A stretch of 64,000 bases of DNA from Stegostoma tigrinum (taxonomy: Eukaryota), in the NCBI RefSeq assembly GCF_030684315.1, contig NC_081397.1, positions 11,804,421 to 11,868,420 on the forward strand, in the 5' to 3' direction. A model generated the notes under the pieces. It did no database searches. It was not told where the DNA came from and saw nothing but the letters and a program-made list of their open reading frames with translations. The position numbers and the translations under genes are program-made. The number at the start of each line of letters is the position of its first letter. The first letter of the stretch is position 1. This document shows positions 7,850-63,776 of the stretch, one piece after another.

Positions 7850-9625
7850 TACACCCCCCCCCCACCCTCCTCCTCCTCCTCCCACCTCCCCACCTCCCTC
7901 CTCCTCCTTCCCCCCCCCCACCCCCCTCCTTCCCCCCCCACCCTCCTCCTCCTCCTCCTCCCACCTCCCACCTCCCTCCTCCTCCTTCCCCCCCCCACCC
8001 CCCTCCTTCCCCCCCACCCCCCTCCTTCCCCACCACCCCCTCCATCCCCCCCCACCCCCCTCCTTCCCCCCCCCTTCCTTCCCCCCCCCTCCCCCCCTCC
8101 TCCCCCCTCCTCCCCCCCTCCTCCCCCCCTCCTCCCCCCCTCCTCCCCCCCCTCCTCCCCCCCCTCCTCCCCCCCCTCATCTCCCCCCCTCATCTCCCCC
8201 CCTCATCTCCCCCCCTCCTCTCCCCCCCCTCCTCTCCCCCCCCTCCTCTCCCCCCCCTCCTCTCCCCCCCCTCCTCTCCCCCCCTCCTCCCCCCCTCCTC
8301 TCCCCCCCCTCCTCTCCCCCCCCTCCTCTCCCCCCCCTCCTCTCCCCCCCCCCTCTCCCCCCCTCCTCTCCCCCCCTCCTCCCCCCCCCTCCTCCCCCCC
8401 CCTCCTCCCCCCCCCTCCTCCCCCCCCTCCTCCCCCCCCCCTCCTCCCCCCCCCTCCTCCCCCCCCCTCCTCCCCCCCCTCCTCCCCCCCCTCCTCCCCC
8501 CCCTCCTCCCCCCCCTCCTCCCCCCCCCTCCTCCCCCCCCTCCTCCCCCCCCCTCCCCCCCCCCCTCCCCCCCCCCCTCCCCCCCTCCCTCCCCCCCCTC
8601 CTCCCCCTCCTTCCCCCCCCTCCTTCCCCCCCTCCTTCCCCCCCCTCCTTCCCCCCCCTCCTTCCCCCCCCCTCCTTCCCCCCCCCTCCTTCCCCCCCCT
8701 CCTTCCCCCCCCCTCCTTCCCCCCCCTCCTTCCCCCCCCTCCTTCCCCCCCTCATTCCCCCCCTCATTCCCCCCCTCATTCCCCCCCCTCATTCCCCCCC
8801 CTCATTCCCCCCCCCTCATTCCCCCCCCCTCATTCCCCCCCCCTCCTTCCCCCCCCCCTCCTTCCCCCCCTCCTTCCCACCCTCCCCTTCCCACCCTCCC
8901 CTTCTCCCCCCCTTCTTCCCCCCCTCTCCCCCCCCTCTTCCCCCCCTCCTTCCCCCCCCTCCTTCCCCCCCCTCCTTCCCCCCCTCCTTCCCCCCCCTCC
9001 TTCCCTCCCTCCTTCCCCCCCCTCCTTCCCCCCCTCCTTCCCCCCCCTCCTCCTTCCCCCCCCTCCTTCCCTCCTCCCCCCTCCTTCCCCCCCTCCTTCC
9101 CCCCCTCCTTCCCCCCCCTCCTTCCCCCCCTCCTTCCCCCCCCCCCTCCTTCCCCCCCCCTCGTTCTCCCCCCCTCGTTCTCCCCCCCTCGTTCTCCCCC
9201 CCTCGTTCTCCCCCCCTCGTTCTCCCCCCTCGTTCTCCCCCCCTCGTTCTCCCCCCCTCGTTCTCCCCCCCTCGTTCTCCCCCCCCTCGTTCTCCCCCCC
9301 TCGTTCTCCCCCCCCTCGTTCTCCCCCCCTCGTTCTCCCCCCCTCGTTCTCCCCCCCCTCGTTCTCCCCCCCCTCGTTCTCCCCCCCTCGTTCTCCCCCC
9401 CCCTCGTTCTCCCCCCCCCTCGTTCCCCCCTCCTCCTTCCCCCCCTCCTCCTTCCCCCCCTCCTCCTTCCCCCCCTCCTCCTTCCCCCCCTCCTCCTTCC
9501 CCGTCCTCCTTTCCCCCCCGAGCCCCGTCCTCCTTCCCCCCCCGCCGCCTCCTCCTTCCCCCCCCCACCGCCTCATCCTTTCCCCCACCCTCCTCCTCCT
9601 CTTCCCCCACCCTCCACCTCCTCCT
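7850..9625 (+). repeat. ~1.8-kb C/T polypyrimidine low-complexity tract
   Basis: Almost exclusively C and T, with drifting short units. Confidence 0.97.
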
Positions 9626-9825
9626 NNNNNNNNNNNNNNNNNNNNNNNNNNNNNNNNNNNNNNNNNNNNNNNNNNNNNNNNNNNNNNNNNNNNNNNNNNN
9701 NNNNNNNNNNNNNNNNNNNNNNNNNNNNNNNNNNNNNNNNNNNNNNNNNNNNNNNNNNNNNNNNNNNNNNNNNNNNNNNNNNNNNNNNNNNNNNNNNNNN
9801 NNNNNNNNNNNNNNNNNNNNNNNNN
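9626..9825. other. Assembly gap (200 N)
   Basis: Run of N. Confidence 1.
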
Positions 9826-16424: not shown

Positions 16425-17110
16425 TTGAAATCACCAGCCGTGCTCCCTAAACTGAAGGGCAAACCCAAAGTGAAAGCAGGCAAGAAAACAGCAAAGAAAT
16501 CCACTAGAGATAGTAGGAACTGCCTATGCTGGAGTCTGAGGGAACAATGTGTTGTGCTGGAGAAACACAGACAGGCAGCAGTAGAGGAGCAGGAAAGCTG
16601 ACGTTTCGGGCCTGGGCCCTTCTTTCGAAATTTGGTAGGGGAAGGGGTCTCTGAAATAAATAGAGAGAGCAGGGTGATAGAAGGTGGCTAGTAGAGAGGA
16701 TTGGTGGGAGAGAAGACGGATAGGTCACGGATGCGGGGATGGAGGGGCGTGGGGCTGGTCTTAGGATGAGGCGGGGCTGGGGAGATTTTCAAGCTAATAA
16801 AGCCCACATTGAGAACACTGGGTTGCAGGTTTCCAAGGCAGAATATGAGGTGCGGTTCCTGTAGTTTCTGGGTGGCATCGCTGTGACACTGGAGGAGGCC
16901 CAAGATGGATATGCCCTCTCTGGAGTGGGAGGGGGAGCTGAAGCGGTTCGCCACTGGGAGAAGTTGTCGTTTATCGCGATCCGAGCGGAGGTACTCCACA
17001 ATGCGGTCTCCAAGCCTCCAGTCGGTACACCATGTAACTGTATGAAGCCAAAGGTTGTTCTCAGGGCCACCGACATCTCTCGGGGAAGAGCTGAGTCCGG
17101 ATGAAATGAC
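16425..17110 (+). pseudogene. H1: Histone H1 relic: C-terminal tail fragment plus decayed 3' stem-loop and downstream element, split by a PLE insertion
   Basis: 16440-16500 encodes KGKPKVKAGKKTAKK (intact H1: KAKPKAKVTKKAAKK); 17020-17180 aligns with the H1 3' flank (reverse complement of 39200-39560); decayed stem-loop ggttgttctcagggcc at 17053-17068. Confidence 0.75.
16505..17020 (-). mobile_element. Penelope-like 3' fragment (GIY-YIG end plus terminal repeat)
   Basis: RLGDRIVEYLRS...LPVANRF...HLIFCLGNLQP on the minus strand, followed by the PLE terminus. Confidence 0.85.
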
Positions 17111-19371: not shown

Positions 19372-19781
<410 letters not shown>

Positions 19782-20577
19782 ACTCAACCGTCCAGAAGGA
19801 GTTAGGAACTATGGGCTTTCATAAATGTAAACCCACAGCATGCTATTCAAGTGTTTCAATGCCACAGCTGTACAGGAACGTAGATAACAAAACGTGTGTA
19901 GTTGGAGGAAGACAGCAGGCCAAGTAACATCTGCAGTTCCCATAATGTCGGTTATAAAAACTTGTTGGGTCTGAGATACACTAATTCACATTAAAGACAA
20001 ATGGCAACTCGGGGCAATCAGGTTTATAAGTGCTCAGTAATCATAACACAATTCAAGTACTGCACCCTACATTTTATAAATTTCCGATGGAAACGCCTTT
20101 GTGGGCCAATTGCTTCCCTGGGCGTTTCCCCAGCAGTAACTGAGCTTGACGGAGGAGGATGGTGGGAAACGGTCGCCAAAGCGGAAAGTCCACCAAAACA
20201 TACAAACGATTTTTGTACTTTGGGCAAAATTTCAATTGCACGACCAAATCTCCCACTCCCGTATTCATTCGATCCTCTGAGGCGGGTCGGTTTCGTATCG
20301 AATGGCCTCTTTGTTGCGCGGACTTCTTGCACGTCCTTTGTTCCCTGTCAGCGTATTGATGGGGATACCGCTTTGAGTTATTATTTAAAGTCGCTGTCCC
20401 GACAGTAAAACCTCAAACTTTATTCGTCCTGTCCCGTAGCTGCTCCAGTTTTAACTCGCTTAAAGCAAAAACAAAAAGGAATTAAGTTTGCGCATTTAGA
20501 ATCCCATGTCAGCACACAAAATGAAAATTGATCAACCAGCAGTGACAGTCTAGCTGCTTTTCACTGATGTTGGGAGT

Positions 20578-20593
20578 GGCTCTGAAAAGAGCC
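20578..20593 (-). terminator. Histone 3' stem-loop (H2A)
   Basis: Reverse complement ggctcttttcagagcc. Confidence 0.97.
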
Positions 20594-20623
20594 TTTGGGT
20601 TGTCAGGTTAAAGAACGGTCTCT

Positions 20624-21076
<453 letters not shown>

Positions 21077-21271
21077 TTATACCTTCGGGAGGAATGGGGG
21101 TGCGGCCATTGCTGATTGGTCACATTGTTCAGTATCTCCTAATGTCGTTTCAATGCCCACTCAGATATCTGCTTCCCTCACCAATCCGGAGAGGGCCCGG
21201 GGAGGGGGCCGGAAAATCCCGGCACCAAATCATCAACTGCTTTTTGTTCAAACGCCAAAAGCCCGCCAATA

Positions 21272-21765
21272 TTGTATCAGTGAGAATGGGAACTGCAGAT
21301 GCTGGAGAATCCAAGATAATAAAGTGTGGATCTGGATGAACACAGCAGGCCCAGCAGCATCTCAGGAGCACAAAAGCTGACGTTTCGGGCCGAGACCCTT
21401 CATCAGAGAGGGCGATGGGGTGGTTCTGGGATAAATAGGGAGAGCGCGGGAGGCGGACCGACGACGGAGACTATAGTTGGGGAGGAGGGAAGGGGAGGGG
21501 ATAGGTCAGTTTAGGGAAGACGGACAGGTCAAGGAGATGGGATGAGGTTAGTAGGTAGGAGATGGAGGTGCAGCTTGGGGTGGGAGGAAGGGATGGGTGA
21601 GAGGAAGAACCAGTTAGGGAGGCAGAGACAGGCTGGACTGGTTTTGGGAGGCAGGTGCTGAGGAAGGTGATGTGGCTGTGGTACCTGGTTTGCTTCAGGA
21701 CATGGTCGAGTAGTTTCAAGGCTGAAGAGATTACAAGAGAGTTGCAGTGGGAGAGCGATTCCACA
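21272..21765 (-). mobile_element. Penelope-like element, internally deleted (ORF start fused to terminal repeat); left arm of composite insertion
   Basis: Inverted match to 24364-24425 and 25730-26085. Confidence 0.85.
21379..21406 (-). ncRNA. Minimal hammerhead ribozyme core in PLE terminus
   Basis: CUGAUGA-A-GGGU(CUCG)GCCC-GAAA-CGUC, identical to 25992-26019. Confidence 0.6.
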
Positions 21766-22045
21766 ACCTAATGACTTATCACAGCTCGTGGTTGTGGATG
21801 AGGCTGCAGAGGGGGTTGTTTATCCGGGACGCTCCCCAGCTGGACTGCGCAGGTAACACTGGAAAAATCGTACTGGTTTTTTGAGGATTGGTCTGTATAG
21901 ACCATGGCCGTCTCGTACTTTTTCTGGTCGTTTGGTCACCCAGCAGCCAGGACTGCTGGGCTTACCGGCGGGGCCAACGGGGAGGCACGACCCACACTAT
22001 GCGCCAAAACGTCATAGTGGGTGACTATGCGATCTCATTAGAGAT
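21766..22045 (-). mobile_element. R2 retrotransposon 5' UTR fragment (inverted)
   Basis: Contains an HDV-like ribozyme fold and abuts R2 coding fragments. Confidence 0.6.
21926..21991 (-). ncRNA. HDV-like self-cleaving ribozyme core (R2 type)
   Basis: GGUCGU/ACGACC (P2); GCC-UCCCCGU(U)-GGC (P3/L3); CCGCC-GG (P1 3' strand, P1.1); CCCAGCAG/CUGCUGGG (P4); CCAA (J4/2). Confidence 0.65.
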
Positions 22046-22778
22046 TCATTATGCCGAAGGTGTGAGATGGCAAACGAAACCATATCACACATCTCAGGAT
22101 GCTGCCCATTCATAAAAAAATGCTCGGATAAAACGCCATAACAAGATTGCTGACCAGCTGCAGAAACATGTCAGTAAGTAAGTACGGCTGGACATCGTAC
22201 GTGGAGCCCAGACTGTTTGACAAAAACGGCTCCCTATGGAAACCCGATCTCATATTTAGAAAAGACCAGAGGATCGCGGTGGTAGATGTCACAGTGCGGT
22301 ACGAGAATGACAGTAAAGCACTGGAAACAGCATGGCGAGAAAAACAGGAGAAGTATAAACACCTGAATGCCGAGGTCACGGAATTGACAGGAGGCGTGGT
22401 GCCCAGATACTTTGGCTTCGTGATGGGCGCATGAGGCAAGTGGCTGGATATGAATAACCGCCTCATGAAATTCCTCGGCATCGAGAGATACGATACGTTC
22501 ACCCAAAAGACATCAAGACTCACTCTGTCACTGACACTCGAACTCTTACAAATCTTCAGTGACAAGTGAGCAAAAGCCGCATACGGTGAGGTAAGATCCT
22601 CCACTGAGACAGAAGCAGGCCCACATAATCCTTACAAATTTGCCAGTAACATCAGTAGGGCCCCGCTGATAATGACGATAACAACCAGCCTCATATAACA
22701 CCAGTATCACCTGGTCCTTGGTCTGTGGTGATGCTAGAGAGTACACAAACTTCGACGAGCGATGTAAAGACTCGGAAA
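22046..22778 (+). mobile_element. R2 C-terminal fragment: CCHC knuckle, restriction-like endonuclease and probable 3' UTR
   Basis: LCRRCEMANETISHISGCC, RHNKI, KPDLIF, VVDVTVRYE, KQEKY; frameshift and stop present. Confidence 0.85.
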
Positions 22779-24363
22779 AGGCCCGCAACAAGGGCCATCT
22801 AGGTCCAGACCGAGACAGCGACCTTGAGATGTTACCTCCTGCCTTACATGGAGCTGAGATCGGTGACCCCTCCCAGGGGGCTGGCTGACCCTGTAACGGA
22901 TGACAGATAACGGGCAGCCCACCCTACGGTTGAGATAAGCATAAACACCCAAACCTTCTACAACAAAATTTATCGAGACACGAAGCAGGGCACAGACGAA
23001 AAAATGATAAGTGAGACTGGCGATGAAACAGCTGATGCAACTGCCTTCATGGAAGGAGTTGTTATCGAGCCAGTATGTGACAGACCGCCCGTCTCGGAAA
23101 TCATCCACTATCCCGTCGATGGGCTGTTCTGCAAGGACTGCGACACCCTCTTCCCCACGGTGAGCCTGTTCAAGATCCATATGACTGAAGTGCACGGAAT
23201 AAAGAACATCCGAACAAAATGTTCACGCTGTGATAAGGCAGGAGAATACCATTCAATAGCCTGCCATTATCCCAAATGCAAAGGAACGAAGCAACCCCCA
23301 ACCGGGGACTTTGCATGCAGTGTGTGTGATCAACAGTTTTCAACACAATCAGGCCTTGGTCAACACGAGAGGCACAGGCACCTGGTTCTACGGAATGAGA
23401 AATGCCTCAAACTGGCACCCAAAGTCAAGGGCAAACCTGGGAGAAGCGACCGCGTATGGTCACAGGAGGTGGTGGCACTCCTGAGGGAATTGGAGGCGAG
23501 ATTTGCAGGATGCAAATTTATAAAGAAATCCATTGCAAGCATCCTGAAAACCAAAACACCAAAGCAAATCTCAGACAAGTGCAGGCTCCTGGCAAACACC
23601 CCGACAGAGGTCCAGACCATCTGCGAGCCAACAATAGACTTGCACGATTCTGAGGCAGGGAGTGACCAGGAGAATTCCGATGATCAAGCCCAATGCCAAA
23701 GAGCCAGCCGAAAAACACCGGCTTCGGTCCCTAAACATCGGGACGTAGATGACCAGCTTACACAAGCTGAAGAGCTCTTGAGCGCAAGGAAGGATCCGGG
23801 CACGTTTGCCCTCGGAATCGGACTAGCGGAAAGCATTCCCGACCTGCTAATGAATAGTAGGAGAAGACAGGACAAAAACAAGAGGCCTCAAAAAGATCGG
23901 GCCAAGAAAGACATAAAGCCCGGTAGCAATACCGGAGCCAAAAAATGGTGGGCAGCACGTAAAGCGCTGTTTAGAGCAACACAGCGGCCTTACAAAACCA
24001 ACCGGCATCAACTAGCTCGCGAGATCATGGGGGCGCCGACCTCATCCGCTTGTCCTCTCTCAAAAGAGGAATTGGAGACATGTTTCTGTGAGAAACTGTC
24101 TGCACCAAACAAGAAATCAAACATAAATAAGTATGCCCCATACACTGGCAAAGTCGATGACGGGTCCTTGATGAAACCCATAGAGGTAGAGGAGGTTGAA
24201 GCGGCCATCAAGGGGATAGGCGCGAACTGTGCCGCTGTACCAGACGGCCTGAAACTGCAGGACATAAGAACACTCCATGAGCAGAGGAAACTCATCTACC
24301 CCGCCTCTTTTCCTTATGGCTAACGTCAATCACGATCCCCGATTCACTAAAAAAGAGTCGAAC
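22779..24363 (+). mobile_element. R2 N-terminal fragment: three zinc fingers, Myb domain and start of RT
   Basis: ORF 23004-24323: CKDC..H..H, CSRC..H...C, CSVC..HERHRH, WSQEVVALL...KTPKQISDK; then PDGL and, in another frame, LFSLWL...IPDSLKKSRT where it is truncated. Confidence 0.85.
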
Positions 24364-26085
24364 TTGTAATCTCTTCAGCCTTGAAACTACTTGATCATGT
24401 TCTGAAGCAAAACAGGTACCACAGACACTTCTCTTTTGACTCCTCCCACTTCCTACAGACTAAGGGGGTGGCCATGGGCACCCGCATGCGCCCCAGCAAT
24501 GCCTGCCTCTTTGGAGGTTACGTAGAACAGTCCCTCTTCCGCACCTACACAGGCCCCAAACCCCACCTCTTCCTCCACTACATTGATGACTGTATCGGCA
24601 CCGCCTCTTGCTCCCCAGAGGAGCTCGAACAGTTCATCCACTTCAACACCTTCCACCCCAACTTTCAGTTCACCTGGGCCATCTCCAGCACATCCCTCAC
24701 CTTCCTGGACCGCTCAGTCTCCATCTCAGGCAACCAGCTTGTAACTGATGTCCATTTCAAGCCCACCGACTCCCACAGCTACCTAGAATACACCTCCTCC
24801 CACCCACCCTCCTGCAAAAATTCCATTCCCTATTCCCAATTCCTCCGCCACTGCCGCATCTGCTCCCACGATAAGACATTCCACTCCCGCACATCCCAGA
24901 TGTCCAAGTTCTTCAAGGACCGCAACTTTCCCCCCACAGCGATCGAGAAGGCCCTTGACCGCGTCTCCCGTATTTCCCGCAACACATCCCTCACACCCCG
25001 CCCCCGCCACAACCGCCCAAAGAGGATCCCCCTCGTTCTCACACACCACCCTACCAACCTCCGGATACAACGCATCATCCTCCGACAATTTCGCCATTTA
25101 CAATCCAACCCCACCACCCAAGACATTTTTCCATCCCCACCCCTGTCTGCTTTCCGGAGAGACCACTCTCTCCATGACTCCCTTGTTCGCTCCACACTGC
25201 CCTCCAACCCCACCACACCCGGCACCTTCCCCTGCAACCGCAGGAAATGCTACACTTGACCCACACCTCCTCCCTCACCCCAATCCCAGGCCCCAAGATG
25301 ACATTCCACATTAAGCAGAGGTTCACCTGCACATCTGCCAATGTGGTATACTGCATCCACTGTACCCGGTGTGGCTTCCTCTACATTGGGGAAACCAAGC
25401 GGAGGCTTGGAGACCGCTTTGCAGAACACCTCTGCTCAGTTCGCAACAAACAACTGCACCTCCCAGTCGCAAACCATTTCCACTCCCCCTCCCATTCTCT
25501 AGATGACATGTCCATCATGGGCCTCCTGCACTGCCACAATGATGCCACCCGAAGGTTGCAGGAACAGCAACTCATATTCCGCCTGGGAACCCTGCAGCCT
25601 AATGGTATCAATGTGGACTTCACCAGTTTCAAAATCTCCCCTTCCCCTACTGCATCCCTAAACCAGCCCAGTTCGTCCCCTCCCCCTACTGCACCACACA
25701 ACCAGCCCAGCTCTTCCCGCCCACACTGCATCCCAAAACCAGTCCAACCTGTCTCTGCCTCCCTAACCGGCTCTTCCTCTCACCCATCCCTTCCTCCCAC
25801 CCCAAGCCGCACCCCCAGCTACCTCCAACCTCATCCCAACTCCTTGACCTGTCCGTCTTCCCTGGACGGACCTATCCCCTCCCTACCTCCCCACCTACAC
25901 TCTCTCCACCTATCTTCTTTTCTCTCCATCTTCGGTCCGCCTCCCCCTCTCTCCCTATTTATTCCAGGTCCCCCTCACCCCATCCCCCTCTCTGATGAAG
26001 GGTCTCGGCCCGAAACGTCAGCTTTTGTGCTCCTGAGATGCTGCTTGGCCTGCTGTGTTCATCCAGCCTCACATTTTACTATCTT
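24364..26085 (+). mobile_element. Penelope-like element (RT + GIY-YIG + terminal repeat), internally deleted and frameshifted
   Basis: QTKGVAMGTRM and YIDD (PLE RT); VVYCIHCTRCGFLYIGETKRRLGDRFAEH (GIY-YIG). Confidence 0.93.
25992..26019 (+). ncRNA. Minimal hammerhead ribozyme core in PLE terminus
   Basis: ctgatgaagggtctcggcccgaaacgtc. Confidence 0.6.
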
Positions 26086-27648
26086 AAACAAGGAAAAATG
26101 CGTTCATACTTCAGATAATATACTTTTAGAATACACTTGTACACTTCACACCATCTCTGTCTGATTCCCCGGCCTTGTTAAATCCGTCTGTTTTCAATCT
26201 TGAAGTTACCCCGCCCCCCAAAAAACAAGATTAAGCGGAAGGGGGAAAGAAAAGCCCGCCGAAAGTTATTCTCTGCACAGCTTTAATTTAATTTAATTCA
26301 CATCAGCACCCGGATATAATGATAAAAGTATCACACAACTTTTTCTTTCTCGTTGAACTCAATACTGCTTTAAACAATATTTTACAATCGCGCTCCCTGT
26401 TGCACAAGATCAACAATATTTCTACTTTTGCGATGCCAGTCCGGCAGCTGTTCTGCTTTTATCTCGGTTCACTTGGAAATTTTCCCGCCGACAGCAGAAA
26501 GCCTCATTTATAGCTTTCTGCAAAACTGGATAGAACCCGCGGGGAGATTTTAAAAATAAAACAAAATTCCTCTGCGTGGAAACCGTAGAAAAATACCGGC
26601 GCCAATATTCAACCGTTTTCTTTGCGATTTAAAAAGCCCGCCAACATGGGCAATACGAGGAAGAGGTTTTACAAGTATTTTTGCATTAATGGCCACGATT
26701 TAATTTCCTTTCAGTTAAAAATGTTCACTTCACATTATCTCTCTCTGCCACTCCCTAAGCAACACCGTTTTCCGAAAACATTGTAAAATAGCCCTCACTT
26801 ATTGGGCTGGATCAGTCTTTCCGGACGGTCTCGGTTCATTTTGAAAGCCTCTCACCGACAGCAGAAAGCCCCACACACTGCAAACTGAAAAAAAATCGGA
26901 TAAATTCCCTGACAGATTTGGAAATTGAAAAAGGAATCGCACGACATTTCTACTAATGGGACTCAAATAAGAGATCATAATTTTTCGCGGGTGAAATCCA
27001 GCGTTCATACCCTATTGGGACAAATTTGAAAAAAAAACCAACATGTAGGATATGTGGTGGGGTGGGGGGAGTTTCACAAAGAGGAATGAACAGTTTAATT
27101 TTTCTTTGAATTTAATTCACTTTAACATTGATGTATTTATAAAAACGTACACAACGTTTTTCTTCCGGGTGAGCGGGTTAAAACTTGAAACAATAGTTTG
27201 AAGTTGCCCTCCCATATTGTCCTTGAACACAGTTTCACACTTGCGACTGCAATCCTGGCTCGGGCTTTATCTCAGTTCATTTTGAAAGCCTCTCACCCAC
27301 AGCTGAAATCCTCAATGACAAGTATTCTGCAAAATATGTTCGTGGGACTCGAGCAGTTAGTTTTCTTTCCAGGGGGTGAAATTCCTGATCATGGGGTAAA
27401 TAATAACTGGAACATAAAGTAGGTGCTGGAAAAAATGACTGAGTGACGATAAATATGCATCTGTGCAGGGAGGGAGGAGAGACTGGGTAGGAAGGCAACC
27501 GAAAGTAACGGAGAAAGGGACAGGGACCAGCACATTAATTTTTAGAACGTTTGTGTAAACAAAGATAAAGATTAGGGACATTAATTATAGATACCGAGAA
27601 TCATTTACAAACGAAAAATGGTTCAACTGCTTCATTGAAATTGTGGGT

Positions 27649-27664
27649 GGCTCTGAAAAGAGCC
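27649..27664 (-). terminator. Histone 3' stem-loop (H2B)
   Basis: Reverse complement ggctcttttcagagcc + accca. Confidence 0.97.
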
Positions 27665-27705
27665 GTTGGGTTTTGGATGTGTTTTTCTCTGCACAATGTG
27701 GGGTC

Positions 27706-28083
27706 TCACTTGGAGCTGGTGTACTTGGTCACCGCCTTTGTACCCTCCGACACGGCGTGCTTGGCCAGCTCCCCGGGCAGCAGCAGCCGCACCGCGGTCT
27801 GGATCTCCCGGGAACTGATGGTGCTGCGCTTGTTGTAATGGGCCAGGCGGGAAGCCTCCCCCGCGATACGCTCGAAAATATCGTTGACGAACGAGTTCAT
27901 GATGCTCATCGCCTTGGAAGAGATGCCGGTGTCGGGGTGAACCTGCTTCATCACTTTGTAGATGTAGATGCAGTAACTTTCTTTCCTACATCTTCTCCGT
28001 TTCTTACCGCCTTTCGCTGGCGCCCTCTTCACCACTTTCTTCGCGCCCTTCTTGGCAACTTGTCCTTTCTTCTCCTCCACCAT
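27706..28083 (-). CDS. H2B: Histone H2B (125 aa, Cys-containing variant)
   Basis: [12 protein letters not shown]...[28 protein letters not shown]...[10 protein letters not shown]. Confidence 0.96.
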
Positions 28084-28136
28084 CGCTGCGCTCACTGTCA
28101 GACACAGAATAAGGGAAAGCGGGCTCGGGGCTCGCC

Positions 28137-28242
28137 TTTTGTAGCCTGATTGCGTCAGCAATGCTAATGAGGGATGGGGGAAAGCCTTGTTACTGATTGG
28201 TTCGATTAAGAGTTTCAGACAAATCTACTTCTCTGTGATTGG
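28137..28242 (-). promoter_or_regulatory. H2B promoter: octamer-like ATTAGCAT, two CCAAT boxes, variant TATA (TACAAAA)
   Basis: Aligns with the paralogous promoter at 59288-59400. Confidence 0.7.
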
Positions 28243-28272
28243 TTAGTGCGGGACACAACGTGGATCTGCCAG

Positions 28273-28466
28273 AGATAGTGGGAACTGCAGATGCTGGAGA
28301 ATCCGAGACAACAAAGTGTGGAGCCGGATGAACACAGCTCGCCAAGCAGCATCTCAGGAGCGCAAAAGCCGATGTTTCGGATCTAGACCTAAGGGTCTAG
28401 GTCAGCTTTTGCGCTCCTGAGATGCTGCTTGGCCTGTTGCGTTCATCCAGCTCCACACTTTGTTAT
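28273..28466. mobile_element. Fold-back PLE-terminus-derived element with 14-bp TSD
   Basis: cgtggatctgccag at 28259-28272 and 28467-28480; the two halves are reverse complements; absent from the paralogous promoter. Confidence 0.85.
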
Positions 28467-28999
28467 CGTGGATCTGCCAGGAACTGCAGTGAAATTTCAA
28501 ACGCAAACAGAAATTTTGTACACGGATCAAACTCCGAACTTTCTCTAAATAGTGAGATCCTAATCGCGATTTTTTCTGCATCTTTGATAATGTTTTTCTT
28601 TTCTCCTCTGTTTAAAAATGTCATCACGTTAATTGCCAGTGACAAAATGCACTGAAATCAGACAGTGGTGTGTTTCACTCCTGGAAATGACGTAACTTGA
28701 TGGGCATGGGAGTTCGGGAATGTTCTCTCTTGCTTGTGTTTCTTGTTAAGGACTTTATACCAGCATCTGTTCTGTCAAGACCCTTTACTTGTTGTTTCCT
28801 CGAAAGGTTTGACGTCCTTCTTCAAATCTCCAATATGTCTAGACCCAAACTATTCATACATTCCTCAGACACCTGCCAGCGTGTCTCGGTATCAGTTTTA
28901 CTCGGATTACCTCGGTCACAGACGAGCACTGATGTACTTTGACCAGTGCCTTTTGCTTTCTATTGATTAGACACATTTTACTCTCTCTCCCACTGAGGC

Positions 29000-34320: not shown

Positions 34321-35439
34321 TGTTTTGTGCAATGGGTTGTGTAATGTAAAAGCAAAAGGTATTGTAACTCCAAAAGTGCAGAGTCTAACCGACAGAAATT
34401 ATATCAAGGGCTGTTCTTCAAGATGGCATCAGCTTTTCTGAGTGCACAGTAACATAATTTTGTGAATAATGCTGAAGGAATAGATTGATGTGGCATTCCT
34501 TTCTTTGAGTCTAAAGGAAAAAGGCAATGAACAAATCAACTGTATTCAGCTGAATGACCACGAGGTTCCTTCTACAGGGAAGGGGATCGGCTAATTCACT
34601 TAATTATACTACCACGGATATTACAGAACCCTGCTCTGTTGTGTGATGGCACATGGCATTAGCAATACTCTTACAATGCACTGTGGTGGGGATGAAGAAA
34701 GAAAAAGGACTTGTATTTTCTGTCTTACAGTGGAGAAGATTTAAACTTATTGAACATGGTCGAACTCTTTGTGAAAAAAGTAAAAATTTGACAATTACAA
34801 GATTCAGTTAAATGGATCATTCTTCATTGCTTTAAATGGTGATTACATCATTCATGTGTAGAAACAGCATTCTGTTTTCCTGCTCACTTCTGCGATATTT
34901 CATTCGGAGGAGTAAGTGACACTGTAAACAACTGTTTAACTTAGTTGCCAAATTCACTTCAATGCTTCCTCCCGCCCAAAAAAAAAGAAGCTTTGCAAGA
35001 CAGATGGAAAATATAGTTTCTATTCCTGAAGGTGAACACGTTGAGAATCACATTGTGATAAGGTTGGGGTTGGCAAATCGTATACTGCCATGACACACTT
35101 ATTGAAATGGAATGCTGGCTGAATGGGATCAGAATTGTCAGGTGCTTGTTTTTGTCTACTATTGCCCCGATGGGCTGAAAGGTATTTTTTTCTGTCTGGT
35201 AGACTCTCTTGCTTTTCTTAAAAAAAGAGCTCTAAACATTTCTTATGTATTTGCTTCTGTTACCTGCAGTGTGTATGACAACAATGTATACCCAGTCTTT
35301 GTATGTGTTGATACAATGAGCATATCTGGGACTCAGTCAGCAGCTTTGTCTATGTGTCTGCACGTGCTCAGTAGTGATTTGCTACTTGTCAGACATGGTT
35401 GTTCAAACTATGTAACATGATGTTTTTCTTTGAGGGGGT

Positions 35440-37350
35440 AACATGGTGTAGAGCTGGATGAACACAGCAGGTCAGGCAGCAGAGGAGCAGGAGAGCTGAC
35501 ATTTCTGGACTGGACCCTTTTGTCAGAAATGGGGGAAGAGAAAGGGACTCTGCAATGAATAGAGAGAAGTGAGGAGATGATGACAAAAGGTGGATAAAGG
35601 ACCAGATAGGTGGAGAGAAGATGGCCAGTCAAGGAGGCAGGGCTGGAGCCAGTAACGGTAAGTGTAGGGAGGGAGTTCGGATATGGGTTGAGGGAAGGCT
35701 GACAGGTCAAGGAGGCAGGGATAAGTTTAGGAGGATGAAGTGCCGGTGGGGGTTGATCAGTGAGGTGGGAGAAGCAGATTGGTCGGAGAAAAGATGGACA
35801 GGTCAAGGAGGCAGGGATGTGCTGGATGAGTTTGGTGTGGAGAGATTTTGAAGCCCACGTTGAGAACATTGTGCTGCAGGGCTCCCAAGTGAAATATGAG
35901 CTGCAGATCGTGCAGCCTTCCGGAGGCAACGTTGTGGCACTGGAGGCGGCCTAGGATGGATATGTTGTCCAAGGGGTGGGAGGGGGTGTTGAAGTGGGTC
36001 ATGACTGGGGAGGTGCAGTCGTTTGTCACGATGTGAGCGTAGGTGTTCAACAAAGTGGTTTCCAAGCCTCCGCTTGGTTTCCCCAATGTAGAGGGGGCCA
36101 CATCAGGAACAGTGGACACAACAAAATGTATTAGCGGACATACAGATGAACATCTGTTTAACATGGAAGGTTTTCTTGGGACAAGGGGAGAGATGTCGGG
36201 GCAGGTGTAGCACTTCCTGTGGTTCCAGTGAAATGTGACAGGGGCGGTGGGGCTAGTGTGGAGCGTGGAGCGGACGAGGGAGTCAGAGAGAGCAGTCCCT
36301 CTGGAAGGCATATAAGGGTGGGGTTGGGAAAATGTCCTTGGGATTGGGGTGAGATTGAAGGTGGCAGAGGAAGGTGCATTGAACCCAGAGTTTGATGGAG
36401 TGATACGTGATGACAAAGGAGATTCTGACTTTGTTGTTATTGTGGAGAGGGGGTGCAAGGGACAAGTTGCAGAAATGAGAGCGATGAGGTCAAGGGCATA
36501 TTCAGCCACTGAGGAGGGGAATTTGGCAGTCCTTGAAAAACAAGGACATCTGCAATGGCCTGGAGTGGAATGCCTCATCTCAGGAGCAGATGACACAGAG
36601 GAAGGAATTGGGAATGGGGGATGGCATTTTTGCAGCCAGGTAGGGGAGGGGAGGGGAAGTGTATTCTAGGTAGCTGTGGGAATCGGTCGGATTGAATTAG
36701 TTACCAGTTTCCAGGTGGTTGCCAGAAATTCAAACGGAGTGGTCCAGGAAGGAGAGAGATATATTTAAGATGGTTCAGGTGAAGTTAAACTTGGGGTGGA
36801 AGGTGTCAGTAAAGTGGATGAACTGTGAGTTCCTTGTGGGAGCACGAGGTGGCACCGATACAGTCATCAAAATAACGGAGGAAGAGGTGGGGATGGGGCC
36901 AGTACAGCTGCAGAAGAGGGGCTGGTCCATGAATCCTACAAGAGGCAGGAATAGCTTGGGCCCACGCGGGTACCCATGGCCACCCACTTTGACTGCAGAA
37001 AGTGGGAGGATTTGAAGGAGATGATGTTGGTGGTGTCACAGATTTAGGTGGGGAGTTCCTGGTCCAGGGGCAGGGGCACGGAGAGCGAGAGAAAATGGAG
37101 TTGAGATAATTGGAGATGAGTTCGGTGGGACAGGGTCACAGAGGAAACGGGTCAACAGGGGCAGTTGGGTTTGTGGATTTTGAGATTGATGCAGAAACAG
37201 TTAATATGGCGTTGGGGAAAGATGAGGTCAGAGGCTGTTGGCGGGAGAGTGCCTGAGGTGCTGAGGTTGTGGATGGTCTGTGAGATGATGATGTTTTGGC
37301 GATTGGGGCAGGGTCATGATCAAAGGGGTGGTAGGAGGACACTCTCTCTA
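35440..37350 (-). mobile_element. Degraded Penelope-like element (RT + GIY-YIG + terminus)
   Basis: YFDDCIGA, QFIHFTDTFHPKFNFT, DSLVRSTL, GALQHNVLNV on the minus strand. Confidence 0.85.
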
Positions 37351-39280: not shown

Positions 39281-39462
39281 GACACAGACGGAATTACAGA
39301 TGCTGGACAATCTGAAATAACAAGGGGTAGAGTCGGATGGACAGAGCAAGCCGAGCAGCACCAGAGAAGCAGGAAGAAGGATCTGGGCCCGAAACGTCAG
39401 CTTTCCTGCTCCTCTGATGCTGCTTGGCCTGTTATGGTCATCCAGCTCTACACCATGTTATC
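39281..39462. mobile_element. Fold-back PLE-terminus-derived element
   Basis: Flanked by acagg(c/g)atcattcga duplications; halves are reverse complements. Confidence 0.7.
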
Positions 39463-39510
39463 ACAGGGATCATTCGATCCAGGCTCAGCTCCTTCCTGAG
39501 AGATGTGGGC

Positions 39511-43688: not shown

Positions 43689-44009
43689 GTATGTTCCCAC
43701 TGTCAGAGCGGAGACTGTCCTTTCCACAGTCGCGGTTTAAGTAAGACTCGCATTGAACGCAATTTCCAGAAAGCAACAATCAAACCAGCAATCAAATGCC
43801 ACCAAATAAATACAAATGTAACCTTTTTTTCTCTTCTCAATATAAACTAGCCCAGTTCCAGTCAAGTTTATCTTTGACAGCCCATTGTCATTCACAGCAT
43901 TTGAAGAGAATAGATTGAATTTATGTCACAAATATACTCTCAATAACTACATTGAATTCACATTAAGCGAGGGTATTTTTATAGTTATAATCCAGGTATA
44001 CAACCTGAT

Positions 44010-44530
44010 CACAAGGTTTAGAGCTGGATGAACACAACAGGCCAAGCAGCATCATAGGAGCAGGAAAGCTGATGTTTCTGATGAAAAGTTTAGGCCCAAA
44101 ATGTCAGCTTTCCTGCCCCTGAGATGCTGCTTGGCCTGCTGTCTTCATCCAGCTCCACACCTTGTTATCTCGGATTCTCCAGCATCTGCAGTTCCATTTA
44201 AGTCTGATACAAACAGATCAAGTTGTTACAATGACCATTATATGGAGTAGGTATTGAGTACAAATATGGAAGGAAACTTTTGATGTTGATCAGTGACTGA
44301 GGACAGAAATAGTAAACAAAAACAGAATTTTCTGGAAAAGCTCAGCAGGCCTGGCAGCATGCGTGAAGAGAAATCAGAATTAATGTTTCGGATCCAGTGA
44401 CCTTTGCGCAGAACTGAGGAAGTGTTTGAAAAGTTAACCATGATTTCTCTTCACGTGCTGCCAGACCTGCTTTGCGTTTCCTGCAAATTCCATGTTTGTT
44501 TCTGACTTGCAGCACCTGAAGTTTTTTGAG
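44010..44530. mobile_element. Two fold-back PLE-derived elements (44010-44206, 44310-44530)
   Basis: Each consists of inverted halves of a PLE terminal repeat. Confidence 0.7.
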
Positions 44531-58790: not shown

Positions 58791-59287
58791 TTTATTCTGG
58801 AGGGAGGATGGTAACTTCTTCAAGTCAGGCATCCCTGGAAGAAGCTTTGCAGTGAAGTTAAAATTGTATCAGAGATAATGGTGACTGCAGATGCTGGAGA
58901 ATCCAGACAAACCTCAGGCGATCTCTACCCCACTGCAACTCTAGGGACAGATCGAGAACCGCACTCCCATTTCCACAATGCAGAGAATGACAGATATTCG
59001 GCAAATTGTCGCTCAAGAAACCCGAAAGTCTTCACAAAACAATACTCCCCACAGCTTAATAAGGAAATCTCAGCTGGTGATGAAACAAGGTAACATTTTA
59101 CTCACAAAAGATCACTGAGCGGAATAAAACACCTTGTCACAATTAAAATCTCGCAGGACTGTGTTCAAAATATTGACAACCAGTTCAACTGCAAGGGAGA
59201 TAGGAATTTGATCCGTGTACAAAATTTCGGTTTGTGTTTCACATTTCGTTGCAGAACCGAAGAGATCCACTTTGTGTTTGACACTAA

Positions 59288-59400
59288 CCAATCACAGAAA
59301 GGCTAATCTCATGGTGTGACATTCTTGTAAAGTACCCAATCAGGAACAAGGATTTCCCTCATCCCTCATTAGCATTGCTGACGCGATCAGGCTATAAAAA
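59288..59400 (+). promoter_or_regulatory. H2B promoter: CCAAT x2, octamer-like ATTAGCAT, TATA
   Basis: ccaat at 59288 and 59336; attagcat at 59368-59375; tataaaaa at 59393-59400. Confidence 0.8.
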
Positions 59401-59452
59401 GCGAGCTCCGAGACGGCTTTCGCTTATTTTGTGTCTGAAAGTGACTGACGCT

Positions 59453-59833
59453 ATGCCAGATGAGAAGAAAGCGCAGCAAGCCTCCAAGAAGGGCGCCAAG
59501 AAAATCATCAAGAAGGCGCCGGGCAAAGCCGGCAAGAAAAGGAAACGATCCAGGAAAGAAAGTTACTCTATCTACATCTACAAAGTGATGAAGCAGGTTC
59601 ACCCCGACACCGGCATCTCCTCCAAGGCGATGAGCATCATGAACTCGTTCGTCAAGGATATTTTCGAGCGTATCGCAGGGGAGGCTTCCCGCCTGGCCCA
59701 TTACAACAAGCGCAGGACCATCAGCTCCCGGGAGATCCAGACCGCGGTGCGGCTGCTGCTGCCCGGGGAGCTGGCCAAACACGCCGTGTCGGAGGGTACA
59801 AAGGCGGTGACCAAGTACACCAGCTCCAAGTGA
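59453..59833 (+). CDS. H2B: Histone H2B (126 aa)
   Basis: [13 protein letters not shown]...[25 protein letters not shown]...TKYTSSK. Confidence 0.97.
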
Positions 59834-59873
59834 GACCCCACATTGTGTTGAAAAAACACATCCAAAACCCAAA

Positions 59874-59889
59874 GGCTCTTTTAAGAGCC
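59874..59889 (+). terminator. Histone 3' stem-loop (H2B)
   Basis: ggctcttttaagagcc + accca. Confidence 0.96.
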
Positions 59890-60641
59890 ACCCACTACCT
59901 CACTGAAACAGCTGAACCGTATTAACTTGGATAGCCGATGCTGGAGAATCTGAGACGACAAGATGTGGAGCTGGATGACCACAGCAAACCAAACAGCATC
60001 AGAGAAGCAGGTAAATTGACGTTTCGGGGCGAGACCCTTCTTTTCAAATGAAGTTTTAGCTTTACAATTGATTCTGGGTCTGGATAATGAATGTCGCTAA
60101 GCTTTGTTTTTAATTATAAAAATAATTTCGTTTGATCCCAGACCCTCTGCCCTTTATTGTCGGTTGCGTATTTCCCAGTCTCTTTTCCCGGCCTGTATAG
60201 AGAGCATATTTATCGACACCGAGTCACTTTTCAGCAAATTCTATATTTTCCAGTTATTCTTTAACCCTTGATCAGGGCAGAAGGTACAGTGCCCCGTGGG
60301 GTATGAAACACGAGTTTCACTCCCGGAAAGAAAAGTAACTGTTGTCGTCCCACGAATAGATTTTGAAATTTATTTGTTCTTTTTTTAAATTAAATTTTCA
60401 AAACGCCACTGACGTCGTCTGATTTTTGCAGAACACTGTAAATGAGGCTCTCAGCTGTCGATAAGAGGCTTTCAAAATGAACTGAGATAAAGCTAGTATA
60501 GCTGCTGGATTGCCATATCAGGTGTGAAGTCTGATCAACGACAAGAGGGACGGCAACTTTAAACTGAAGTTTCACCGTTCTCACCCGCAGGAGCGTTGAG
60601 TTTTTGATAAATATTTCAGGGTGCACTTGCAATATGAAAAT

Positions 60642-61381
60642 GAACCGGAAGGCAAAGTACTGGGCTTATGGTAAGATTCATGGCAGTGTAGATGAGCAGA
60701 GAGATCTCGGTGTCCATGTATACAGATCCTTGAAAGTTGCCACCCAGGTTGACAGGGCTGTTAAGAAGGCATACAGTGTTTTAGCTTTTATTAATAGAGG
60801 GATCGAGTTCTGGAACCAAGAGGTTATGGTGAAGCTGGACACAACTCTGGTGCGGTCGCACTTGGAGTATTGTGCACAGTTCTGGTCACCGCATTATAAG
60901 AAGGATGTGGAAGCTGAGGAAAGGGTGCAGAGATTTACTGGGATGTTGCCTGGTATGGAGGGAACGTTTTACGAGGAAAGGCTGAGGGACTTGAGGCTGT
61001 TTTCATTACAGAGAAGGTGGTTGAGAGGTGACTGAATTGAAACATATAAAATAATCAGAGGATTAGATAGGGTGGATAGGGAGAGCCTTTTTCATAGGAT
61101 GGTGACAGCGAGCACGAGGGGGCATAGCTTTAAATTGAGGGGTGAAAGATACAGGACAGATGTCAGAGGTAGTTTCTTTACTCAGAGTAGTAAGGGAATG
61201 GAACGCTTTGCCTGCAACGGTAGTAGATTCTCCAGCTTTAGGTATCTTTTAAATCGTCTTTGGATAAGCATATGGACGTACATGGAATAGTGTAGGTTAG
61301 ATGGGCTTGAAATCGGTATGACAGGTCGGCACAACATCGAGGGCCGAAGGGTCTGTACTGTGCTGTTATGTTCTATGTTCT
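60642..61381 (+). mobile_element. 5'-truncated CR1 inserted in the H2B-H2A spacer
   Basis: Closely similar to the CR1 at 1400-2652; absent from the paralogous spacer at ~27110. Confidence 0.92.
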
Positions 61382-62460
61382 AACTAAGTTCGGCGAAAAA
61401 TTAAATTATTCATTCCTCTTAGGAAAAAAAAAACTAAGTTTTACAATTTCGTACACGTTGTAGGATTTTGTCCCTGTGGGTAACGACCCCAACTCTCTCT
61501 CGTGGTAACCAAAACCAATAAGCCCGTATTTGAGACATACGAACAGAAGTATCGTGCGATTTGTGTTTTTCAATTTCCAAATCTCTACGTGAATTTATTT
61601 TCAGAATGCAGTCTGTGGGGTTCCCCGTTGTCGGGTAGAGTCTTTCAAAATGAACCGAGATTAACAGGGAAGTCTGATCTCACACAATAATCACAAAATT
61701 TTCGGAAGACGCTGATGTTTTGAATGAGAACGAGAGAGGTTATGTCAAGGATCAATTTGTAATCTAAAAGGAAATTAAATCATACGCATTCATGTAAAAC
61801 GTCTTCCTCGTATTGCCCATATTGGCGGGCTTTTCAAATCGGTAAGAAAACGGTTGATGATTTGGCGCCGGTATTTTCCTACGTTTGCCGCGCCGAGGAA
61901 TTTTGTTTTATTTTCAAATCTCCCCGGGTTTTGCAGAAAGCTATAAATGAGGCTTTCTGCTGTCGGTGGGAAAATTTCAAAGTGAACCGAGATGAAAGCA
62001 GAACAGCTGCCGGACTGGCATCGCAAAAGTAGAAATATTGTTGATCTTGTGCAATAGGGAGCGCGATTGTAAAATATTGTTTAAAGCAGTATTGAGTTCA
62101 ACGGCAAAGAAACAGCTGTGTGATACTTTTATCAATGTATCCGGGTGCTGATGTGAAATAAAATGCATCTGTTCAGAGCAACTTACGCCGGGCTCTTTTT
62201 CTGCCATCTGTTTATTCTTAAGGATCAGGGTAAAAAGCAAAATCATAATCACATCGATTCACTTAGGCCTGGGAATCAGAGAGAGATTGTGTGAAGTATA
62301 CAGGCGTATTCTAAAAGTAAATTATCTCAAGAATGAACGCATTCTTCTTTGTAAAACTTCTACCCGTTTTGAAACTATTGGCGGGCTTTTCGAGTTTGAA
62401 AGAAAGCGGTTGATGATTTGGCGCCGGGATTTTCCGGCCTCCTCCCCGGGCCCTCTCCGG

Positions 62461-63022
<562 letters not shown>

Positions 63023-63052
63023 AGAGACCGTTCTGTAACCTGACAACCCAAA

Positions 63053-63068
63053 GGCTCTTTTCAGAGCC
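63053..63068 (+). terminator. Histone 3' stem-loop (H2A)
   Basis: ggctcttttcagagcc + accca. Confidence 0.97.
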
Positions 63069-63776
63069 ACCCACAAAGTCAGTGAAAAGCAGCTAGACTG
63101 TCACTGCTGGTTGGTTTACTTTAATTTTATGTGCAAACACGGGACTAAATGCGCAAAAATATCCGTTTCCTTTTTGCCTTAACCTAAAGAAAACTAGAAC
63201 AGCTGTCGGAGGGGAGTAATAAAGTTTTACTGCAGGGACAGCGACTTTAAATAGTAACTCACAGCGGTTTCCCTATCACTATGCCGACAGGGAACAAAAG
63301 ACATGCGCTAACTCCCCGCAAGAAAGGGGCCGTTCGAGACTAAACCGAGCCTCCTCAGAGGATCGAATGAATACACTCGTGTGAGATGAGGCAAAATTTC
63401 AATTGCACGATCAGAAATATAAAAATCGTTTGTATATTTTGGTGGGCTTTTCGAATTGGCCACTGTTTCCCAACATCCTCATTCGTCAACTTCAGTTGCA
63501 GCTGGGGAAACGCCAAGGGAAGCAATTGGCAAGCAAAGGCGTTTGAATCGGAAATTTATAAAATGTTAGGTACAGTACTTGAACTGTGTTGTGATTACTG
63601 AGCACTTATAAACCTGTTTCACAACTCGGGGGAATTATTGGGCCTGAGAGATGCACTAAGTTTCTGTAACAGCGGTGACATTGAGACATAACATCAATAG
63701 TATGCTGTGGGTTTATATTAACTACAGTCCATCGTGTCTAATGATTGCTGTTCTCTCTCTCTCTGGATAGTGTCGT

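What the first reader, a model, noticed from the sequence alone, without database searches (positions are those of the whole stretch)
21272..26085. Composite insertion: inverted Penelope ends enclosing scrambled R2 cargo, in an H2A upstream region
Seen: the whole ~4.8 kb is absent from the paralogous arm (62320-62390 is continuous, with ~20 bp lost on the left), so it behaves as one insertion ~255 bp upstream of the H2A ATG. Both ends are the same PLE family pointing outward, each with an identical hammerhead core, and both inner ends lie at the PLE ORF start (LVISSALKLLDHVLKQ). Between them lie three pieces of an unrelated R2 element. Known: PLEs form inverted termini. Inference: PLE reverse transcriptase template-switched onto R2 RNA, or a PLE-bounded unit mobilised R2 sequence in trans, giving a chimera with two ribozyme classes.
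Basis: partly seen in the sequence, partly recalled or inferred. Interest (0 to 1): 0.75.

Follow-up and report, generated by a model that had tools for sequence, protein, structure and literature searches.

The report
Penelope ends enclosing scrambled R2 pieces
Upstream of a shark histone H2A gene lies a decayed 4.8-kb insertion made of two outward-facing Penelope retrotransposon ends around three rearranged pieces of an unrelated R2 retrotransposon, likely built in one event by a Penelope reverse transcriptase copying from both sides of the cut and jumping between RNAs.

Summary
The composite is in the assembly as described. Two internally deleted Penelope-like (PLE) copies face outward, each with a minimal hammerhead and each capped at its inner end by a short piece of the PLE ORF start. 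Between them are three non-overlapping pieces of one lineage-A R2: the 5' end inverted (21763-22049), the near-3' end (22050-22781) and the N-terminal coding part (22782-24363); the R2 RT is missing. The first and third pieces lie about 12 nt apart in native R2, the twin-priming signature. No target-site duplication flanks the insert or the R2 block; about 20 bp of target is missing. The arms differ by 9.5% and look like two source copies. Best reading (0.5): one twin-primed PLE insertion with serial template jumps onto an R2 RNA. Rival (0.25): a head-to-head PLE pair later broken at its centre and patched with R2 cDNA. A mobile chimeric family is unlikely (0.1). The R2 HDV-like ribozyme lacks its P1 5' strand, so 'two ribozyme classes' holds only as remnants. 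One of four inner junctions has contig support, just short of the tool's bridging rule. PLE capture and twin-primed chimeras are known; I found no PLE-R2 case in print.

The parts
20624..21016 (-). Histone H2A coding sequence (host gene, intact; context)
   Evidence: ORF; 0-3 differences per 100 nt against the paralog over 20600-20999; stem-loop at 20554-20598
21272..21312 (-). PLE 'tail' (41 nt), present on the left arm only
   Evidence: The left arm runs 41 nt past the point where the right arm ends. Modal PLE ends in organism A contigs lie at 21314 and 21285 (table 7). A tail on one end is described in PMC3846280 and PMC8557442.
21313..21654 (-). Left arm: PLE 3' end (pLTR region)
   Evidence: 306 matches, 32 mismatches and 6 gaps against 25726-26085
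21379..21406 (-). Minimal type-I hammerhead core (left)
   Evidence: CUGAUGA, one unpaired A, 4-bp helix II, GAAAC, palindromic ACGU read from the sequence; matches the min-HHR features of PMC4209133; no Rfam hit
21655..21762 (-). Left arm: PLE ORF N-terminal piece, fused to the 3' end over an imperfect 8-10 nt microhomology (internal deletion)
   Evidence: HMM E=5e-7; junction printed
21763..22049 (-). R2 piece A: 5' end, inverted (about 10 nt of 28S-like leader, ribozyme region, start of ORF)
   Evidence: Colinear by eye with the 5' end of R2-1_STig. Native joint 21763-22782 on opposite strands in X1 (depth 235) and X6 (35.5). 22049-22040 matches the 28S upstream target at 9 of 10 letters.
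21926..21992 (-). HDV-like ribozyme core (P2, P3, L3, P1 3' strand, P1.1, P4, J4/2 with the putative catalytic C), lacking the P1 5' strand
   Evidence: The stretch folds with z=-3.3. P2 and P4 show compensatory or alternative pairs against two published shark R2s by eye. The nearest GGYGGR partner upstream on this strand is at 22923. No Rfam hit.
22050..22781 (+). R2 piece B: CCHC knuckle, restriction-like endonuclease, stop at 22567-22569, 3' UTR ending about 21 nt short of the R2 3' end
   Evidence: tblastn to P0002 residues 1074-1219, E=2.6e-28; contigs align from 22050; the 3' UTR of R2-1_STig continues past this point
22782..24363 (+). R2 piece C: N-terminal coding region (three zinc fingers, Myb) up to the start of the RT
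   Evidence: 49% identity to P0001 over 464 aa; tblastn ends at 24364; zf-C2H2 E=1e-4, below cut-off
24364..24428 (+). Right arm: PLE ORF N-terminal piece
   Evidence: 63 of 69 identical to the left-arm piece; relatives have other residues before the RT motif here
24429..26085 (+). Right arm: second half of PLE RT, GIY-YIG endonuclease, pLTR 3' end without tail
   Evidence: 75 PLE relatives, best 65% identity; GIY-YIG E=2.4e-4, 21.8 bits against a cut-off of 22.6; one frameshift near 25257
25992..26019 (+). Minimal type-I hammerhead core (right)
   Evidence: Identical to the left core; helix II seen in the fold, which is not more stable than shuffles (z=0.86)

Best explanation
This is a decayed composite insertion of two PLE ends and three pieces of one R2 element, likely single-locus and likely made in one twin-primed event by a PLE reverse transcriptase that jumped between RNA templates. 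Shown: the order, orientation and boundaries of the seven segments, the empty paralogous site, the lack of a TSD and the decay. Inferred: (1) the PLE protein cut both strands at an AT-rich site and primed two cDNAs on two different PLE RNAs, one at the tail site and one at the no-tail site. (2) Each cDNA reached the ORF-start piece, by a jump within the PLE RNA or because the templates were already deleted. (3) Both then jumped onto one R2 RNA: the right cDNA copied piece C back to 22782, close to where the left cDNA had entered (12 nt upstream), and jumped again to near the R2 3' end to copy B, while the left cDNA copied A almost to the ribozyme-cut 5' end. (4) The two cDNAs were joined at A|B with 0-2 nt of microhomology, and about 20 bp of target was lost. 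The product encodes no working protein and is most likely inert.
For: Both outer ends are PLE 3' ends, one tailed and one not, the usual PLE layout. The anole PLE protein cuts and extends both strands, starts at two sites that define the tail, prefers AT-rich DNA and is predicted to be a dimer (PMC11167929). Two other head-to-head PLE pairs in this window carry 14-bp and 9-bp TSDs (the longest chance repeat in 295 random pairs was 7), so two-sided PLE insertion happens in this genome. There is a single polarity switch across seven segments. A and C are joined in native R2, with 12 nt between them in R2-1_STig; two independent breaks would fall that close in a 4.2-kb element about 0.6% of the time per pair, about 3% over six ordered pairs (my arithmetic). 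No TSD surrounds the R2 block, A+B or B+C, and only chance-level 5-mers surround A and C. Piece B stops about 21 nt before the R2 3' end and no downstream 28S follows, which argues against R2's own site-specific start. Decay at conserved residues is similar: PLE 6 of 75, R2 7 of 57, p=0.56.
Against: Template jumping has not been shown for a PLE RT in the papers I read; it was proposed in PMC3846280 and reported for R2 in PMC3414825 (abstract). No R2 piece ends at a natural RNA end, so the jumps were not simple end-to-end jumps. The model needs three to five jumps and at least three RNAs. The single polarity switch is weak evidence: 4 of 8 orientation patterns of three pieces fit it. The age test has low power and different column rules on the two sides. 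The whole insert has no TSD, unlike the two smaller pairs. Only A|B has a listed contig, with 28-30 letters on its short side (the tool asks for 31), in 1 of 4 runs, and that run may be the assembly's own source.
Confidence: 0.5

Rival explanations
1. Two steps: a head-to-head PLE pair inserted first. Its central near-palindrome (two 69-bp ORF-start pieces, 25-nt spacer) later broke and was patched with R2 cDNA primed from both broken ends, by R2's own RT or another RT.
For: It explains the lack of a TSD around the R2 block and the twin-priming layout of R2 without needing PLE RT jumps. The inner pieces are 89-91% inverted repeats. Central palindromes are common in PLE pairs. R2 RT jumps templates in vivo (abstract).
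Against: Decay is similar in the two parts. It needs R2 RNA and an RT at a break outside rDNA with no R2 3' end used. Both ORF-start pieces survive unresected.
Confidence: 0.25
2. A pre-formed PLE-bounded chimera was mobilised in trans as a unit and is one member of a small family.
For: The X1 contig across A|B (116 nt, 0 differences) has depth 46.3, against 12.3-13.2 for three diverged, likely single-copy pieces in the same run, about 3.7 times higher. PLE repeats have moved a host gene in trans.
Against: Contig depth is no copy number and can be inflated. Extra copies could be passive duplicates of the histone unit (the flank contig has depth 508). The cargo lies between inverted arms from two source copies, there is no TSD, and at 21 of 40 listed variant positions X1 shows none of the window's letter (contigs drop rare variants, so this is weak).
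Confidence: 0.1
3. Stepwise DNA-level history: a more complete R2 copy and separate PLE insertions were later cut, inverted and deleted at this site.
For: Junctions of 0-2 nt microhomology also fit end-joining. The arms come from two source copies. Dispersed diverged R2 fragments exist in organism A (records 5 and 12).
Against: No single inversion or deletion of a linear R2 gives the order A(inverted)-B-C. No target DNA lies between PLE and R2. Two independent PLE insertions would both have to end in the ORF-start piece exactly at the R2 ends.
Confidence: 0.12
4. Assembly artefact joining reads from separate repeats.
For: Three of four inner junctions and both outer junctions have no listed bridging contig (table cut; the right outer junction was not in the stretch laid). 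The window has a 200-N gap at 9626-9825.
Against: The flanks match an empty paralog on both sides. Every piece carries private decay (stops, frameshifts, CpG-type changes). A contig matches across A|B without a difference.
Confidence: 0.03

Closest known systems
Head-to-head insertions of C-terminal-EN Penelope-like elements (PMC3846280, PMC8557442, PMC11167929; passages read)
   Same: Inverted ends pointing outward, tail on one end only, hammerhead in the pLTR region, AT-rich site, microhomology-type internal deletions
   Different: 2.6 kb of another retrotransposon class sits between the inner ends; both inner ends carry an ORF-start piece fused to distant sequence; no TSD
PLE capture in trans in Adineta vaga (NRPS gene and spacers between pLTRs; PMC3846280, passages read)
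   Same: Foreign sequence bounded by PLE ends
   Different: There the gene is intact, lies between direct pLTRs and has an 8-bp TSD; here the cargo is broken, reordered, between inverted arms, with no TSD
L1 twin priming and L1 chimeric insertions with other RNAs (PMC2912911, PMC13174262; passages read)
   Same: Two cDNAs from the two target ends, an inverted 5' segment entering near where the other stops, short microhomologies, foreign RNA joined in one event
   Different: The primers here are PLE ends, there is no poly(A) tail or TSD, and a third piece is patched into the inversion junction
Lineage-A R2 of sharks, nearest R2-1_STig of Stegostoma tigrinum (PMC13188248, Table S2 rows 165-177 and one Table S7 row seen, cells cut at 400 characters)
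   Same: 5' end, N-terminus (a 28-residue identical run by eye) and 3' UTR are colinear
   Different: This copy is outside rDNA, lacks about 520 aa of RT, the last 21 or so nt and the P1 5' strand, and is reordered
R2 SIDEs, R2/R1 hybrid SIDEs and R2 template jumps (PMC3414825, abstract only)
   Same: R2 sequence fused to another element's end; jumps between RNAs
   Different: SIDEs keep a working 5' ribozyme and a 3' end in order and stay in rDNA; this has neither

Membership tests
Penelope-like element, C-terminal EN type (arms) | PLE-type RT | tested here: met
   75 relatives with E<=1e-3 among 1105 candidates, best 65% identity; second half of the RT only
Penelope-like element, C-terminal EN type (arms) | GIY-YIG endonuclease after the RT | tested here: met
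   Pfam GIY-YIG E=2.4e-4, 0.8 bit under the curated cut-off; motif visible
Penelope-like element, C-terminal EN type (arms) | Minimal hammerhead in the terminal repeat | tested here: met
   Core motif read from the sequence and compared with PMC4209133; Rfam gave no hit; cleavage untested
Penelope-like element, C-terminal EN type (arms) | 30-40 bp tail on one end of an inverted unit | tested here: met
   41-nt extension on the left arm only
Penelope-like element, C-terminal EN type (arms) | Complete ORF (autonomous copy) | tested here: not met
   Both arms internally deleted; frameshift near 25257
Penelope/Poseidon clade | RT tree placement | not tested
   No tree was built
R2 lineage A (source of the middle pieces) | Three N-terminal zinc fingers plus Myb | tested here: met
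   CCHH, CCHC and CCHH motifs and a Myb-like stretch by eye; R2 relatives; Pfam scored only one finger, under cut-off; nearest published element is labelled clade A
R2 lineage A (source of the middle pieces) | CCHC knuckle and restriction-like endonuclease | tested here: met
   tblastn E=2.6e-28 to P0002
R2 lineage A (source of the middle pieces) | RT domain | tested here: not met
   P0002 residues 555-1073 have no match in the window
R2 lineage A (source of the middle pieces) | Insertion at the 28S target by its own 3' end | tested here: not met
   Histone-cluster site; the 3' end is cut about 21 nt short and no downstream 28S follows
HDV-like ribozyme | P2, P3, L3, P1.1, P4 and catalytic C | tested here: met
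   Read from the sequence and compared by eye with two shark R2s; one L3 and one J4/2 change; no covariance model was built
HDV-like ribozyme | P1 helix with its 5' strand and cleavage site | tested here: not met
   The P1 3' strand complements the 28S -28 stretch used by many R2s, which is absent here
PLE trans-mobilised cargo unit | Cargo between direct pLTRs, with a TSD | tested here: not met
   Arms are inverted; no TSD
PLE trans-mobilised cargo unit | Same junctions at several unrelated loci | tested here: inconclusive
   No genome held; one contig depth of about 3.7 times the single-copy level
Twin-primed chimeric insertion | Opposite-strand segments from one RNA with near-adjacent breakpoints | tested here: met
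   Joint 21763-22782, 12 nt apart in R2-1_STig
Twin-primed chimeric insertion | One TSD around the whole insert | tested here: not met
   None of 5 nt or more within 12 nt of the ends; about 20-bp loss instead
Twin-primed chimeric insertion | All parts arrived at once (outgroup or allele evidence) | not testable with these tools
   No eukaryotic genomes are held; only similar decay was shown

The most novel reading that the evidence does not exclude
A Penelope-bounded, non-autonomous composite family that carries scrambled R2 cargo and has been copied as a unit to several unrelated loci, built by a PLE RT that routinely jumps to its own ORF-start segment and from there onto other elements' RNAs.
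Probability: 0.1. Interest if true: 0.7.

Novelty: new variant of a known kind. Interest (0 to 1): 0.38.

Why it matters
How PLEs make inverted ends and capture foreign sequence is still unresolved, and their RT is the nearest mobile relative of telomerase (PMC8557442 abstract). If the best reading holds, this locus is an in vivo footprint of two-sided priming plus serial template jumps across retrotransposon classes. It makes a testable prediction for the purified anole PLE system: cDNA should jump to the ORF-start segment and to added foreign RNA. As a dead copy it probably has no function, and the H2A gene beside it is intact.

Tried and rejected
No genome is held, so the genome-wide junction search could not be run. 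Rfam found only histone stem-loops in the window and no ribozyme at E<=10 in 21000-26400. No RNA holder was listed among 24 runs; this says nothing about expression. Metagenome scans found no R2 relative DNA (0 of 207 pattern matches confirmed; 0 matches). Three look-ups of earlier findings returned nothing. A remote search with the ORF-start peptide was still queued and was never collected. Rejected: my early idea that A and C abut bluntly, that B ends at the natural R2 3' end, and that the GG at 22780-22781 came from the PLE (which would have supported a later inversion of A+B); the GG belongs to the R2 3' UTR. Rejected: an HDV-like ribozyme at the start of piece C (z=-0.29; the region is coding). 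Rejected: a later R2 insertion with a TSD. CpG ratios could not be calibrated and were not used. A lack of cover or of listed bridging contigs is not taken as absence, because 184,005 pieces and 177 joints were not shown.
Full report
Setting. The window is a histone gene cluster (stem-loops; ORFs) with a large inverted duplication. Best protein hits are from Chiloscyllium punctatum and the nearest published R2 is from Stegostoma tigrinum, so the host is likely a carpet-shark relative. No genome is held.

Observation. The flanks 20016-21271 and 26088-26969 match the paralogous arm, which is continuous across the site. About 19-22 nt of the paralog has no counterpart; the right flank is about 25% diverged, so the size of that loss is approximate. 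No direct repeat of 5 nt or more flanks the insert. The H2A ATG is about 256 bp away, and its coding sequence differs from the paralog by 0-3 per 100 nt.

PLE arms. The right arm (24364-26085, +) encodes the second half of a PLE RT (75 relatives) and a GIY-YIG domain (just under the Pfam cut-off). The left arm (21272-21762, -) holds only the 3' end. Both have a minimal hammerhead core, identical over about 60 nt, with the features listed in PMC4209133 (passages); Rfam does not score it. The left arm has a 41-nt tail that the right lacks. In organism A contigs many PLE copies end at 21314 and 21285, which fits the two RT start sites reported for the anole PLE (PMC11167929, parts 1-2 of 4 read). 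Each arm is capped inside by a piece of the ORF N-terminus (HMM from 24 long relatives, E=5e-7, best of 2012 segments; the right piece is 63 of 69 identical to the left). Both arms are therefore internally deleted. The 3' parts differ at 32 of 338 aligned sites plus 6 gaps. Near the end, the right arm shares a haplotype with the copy at 13437 and the left with copies at 28401 and 44077. I infer two source copies.

R2 pieces. Piece C (22782-24363) is the N-terminal coding region (49% to P0001). Piece B (22050-22781) is the knuckle, endonuclease and 3' UTR. About 520 aa of RT between them is missing. Piece A (21763-22049, -) is the 5' end. Contigs of X1 (depth 235) and X6 (35.5) join 21763 to 22782 on opposite strands, 2 of 4 runs laid. 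The published R2-1_STig reads through A, 12 nt, then C, and its 3' UTR continues about 21 nt beyond 22782 (compared by eye). The pieces do not overlap, and no piece ends at a natural RNA end.

Ribozymes. Piece A holds an HDV-like core at 21992-21926 with P2, P3, P4, P1.1 and the putative catalytic C. The stretch 22060-21925 folds better than all 200 shuffles, and P2 and P4 vary with pairing kept against two shark R2s (by eye). Its P1 3' strand complements the 28S sequence at -28 that many R2 ribozymes use (PMC3774820 passages). Only about 10 nt of 28S-like leader remain, and the nearest alternative partner is about 930 nt upstream, so this copy is predicted not to cleave.

Read support. The best of 24 listed runs holds 38% of the sampled words. 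I laid 4 runs on 21120-24620. One X1 contig (21962-22077, no differences) crosses A|B with 28-30 letters on the short side, just under the tool's 31-letter rule; X1 may be the assembly's source. Its depth, 46.3, is about 3.7 times that of three likely single-copy pieces, which could mean several copies, histone-unit duplicates or inflation. Against a family: at 21 of 40 listed variant positions X1 shows none of the window's letter, although contigs drop rare variants. No listed piece bridges the other junctions; the tables were cut.

Mechanism. Everything left of A|B is minus-sense and everything right of it is plus-sense, as expected for two cDNAs growing inward from sense RNAs; this alone is weak (4 of 8 patterns fit). 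The near-adjacency of A and C is the stronger sign of one R2 template entered from both sides, as in L1 twin priming (PMC2912911 and PMC13174262, passages), with B patched in between. Both outer ends are PLE 3' ends, and two other head-to-head pairs in the window have 14-bp and 9-bp TSDs (2 of 3 pairs tested; the third had a chance-level 6-mer), so I assign priming to the PLE protein. Decay at conserved residues is similar (6 of 75 against 7 of 57, p=0.56; I used the 25 best of 75 PLE relatives and 4-5 R2 relatives). I put one event with serial jumps at 0.5, break-and-patch of a PLE palindrome at 0.25, stepwise DNA rearrangement at 0.12, a mobile family at 0.1 and an artefact at 0.03.

Known and new. 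Inverted PLE ends, one-sided tails and capture of unrelated sequence are described (PMC3846280, PMC8557442, PMC6431247; passages). R2 hybrids and template jumps are described (PMC3414825, abstract), as are shark R2s (PMC13188248; passages and supplement rows). An opposite-orientation insertion by telomerase RNA is a looser parallel (PMC2246262, passages). Searches listed no PLE-R2 chimera; I saw only listings for most hits, and the library lacks most subscription papers. The retrozyme preprint (10.64898/2026.07.22.740005) was read in part 1 of 5 only, and its supplements are closed. Verdict: a real, unusually readable but probably inert composite; a new variant of a known kind; interest 0.38.

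Noticed in passing
joint 23076 to 22509 (runs X1, X2): Contigs join the R2 5' coding part directly to the last ~60 nt of the ORF and the 3' UTR (depth 75.7 and 150.7, 51 letters on the short side): a likely SIDE-like internally deleted R2 derivative in organism A.
   Followed up: no
joints 21469-21739, 21546-21680, 21555-21732, 21607-21683: 4 of 15 listed joints link the PLE ORF-start piece to other points of the 3' end, hinting that such fusions recur genome-wide. The short sides are only 20-28 letters, so this is weak.
   Followed up: partly
window 28270-28467, 39290-39466, 44007-44212: Short head-to-head PLE end pairs; the first has a 14-bp TSD and is absent from the paralog, the second has a 9-bp TSD.
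   Followed up: partly
window 21407 (table 7): Over 500 contigs per organism-A run break just at the 5' side of the hammerhead: many very short PLE copies begin there.
   Followed up: no
joints 21302-24450 and 21649-24462: Other loci appear to join an inverted PLE 3' end directly to the RT region near 24450, the same head-to-head layout without R2 (short sides 27-28 letters).
   Followed up: no
window 19500-19790: Fragment of a histone H3 coding sequence that appears to carry internal deletions, ending in a decayed stem-loop; likely a pseudogene.
   Followed up: no
window 20016-28535 against 59203-63619: Inverted duplication of an H2B-H2A unit; coding sequence is nearly identical while flanks differ by 13-25%, consistent with selection or gene conversion.
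   Followed up: partly
window 35439-37034 (-) and 16516-17019 (-): Older PLE copies, 71-76% identical to the right arm.
   Followed up: no
window 7854-9625: Long C-rich low-complexity tract running into a 200-N gap (9626-9825).
   Followed up: no
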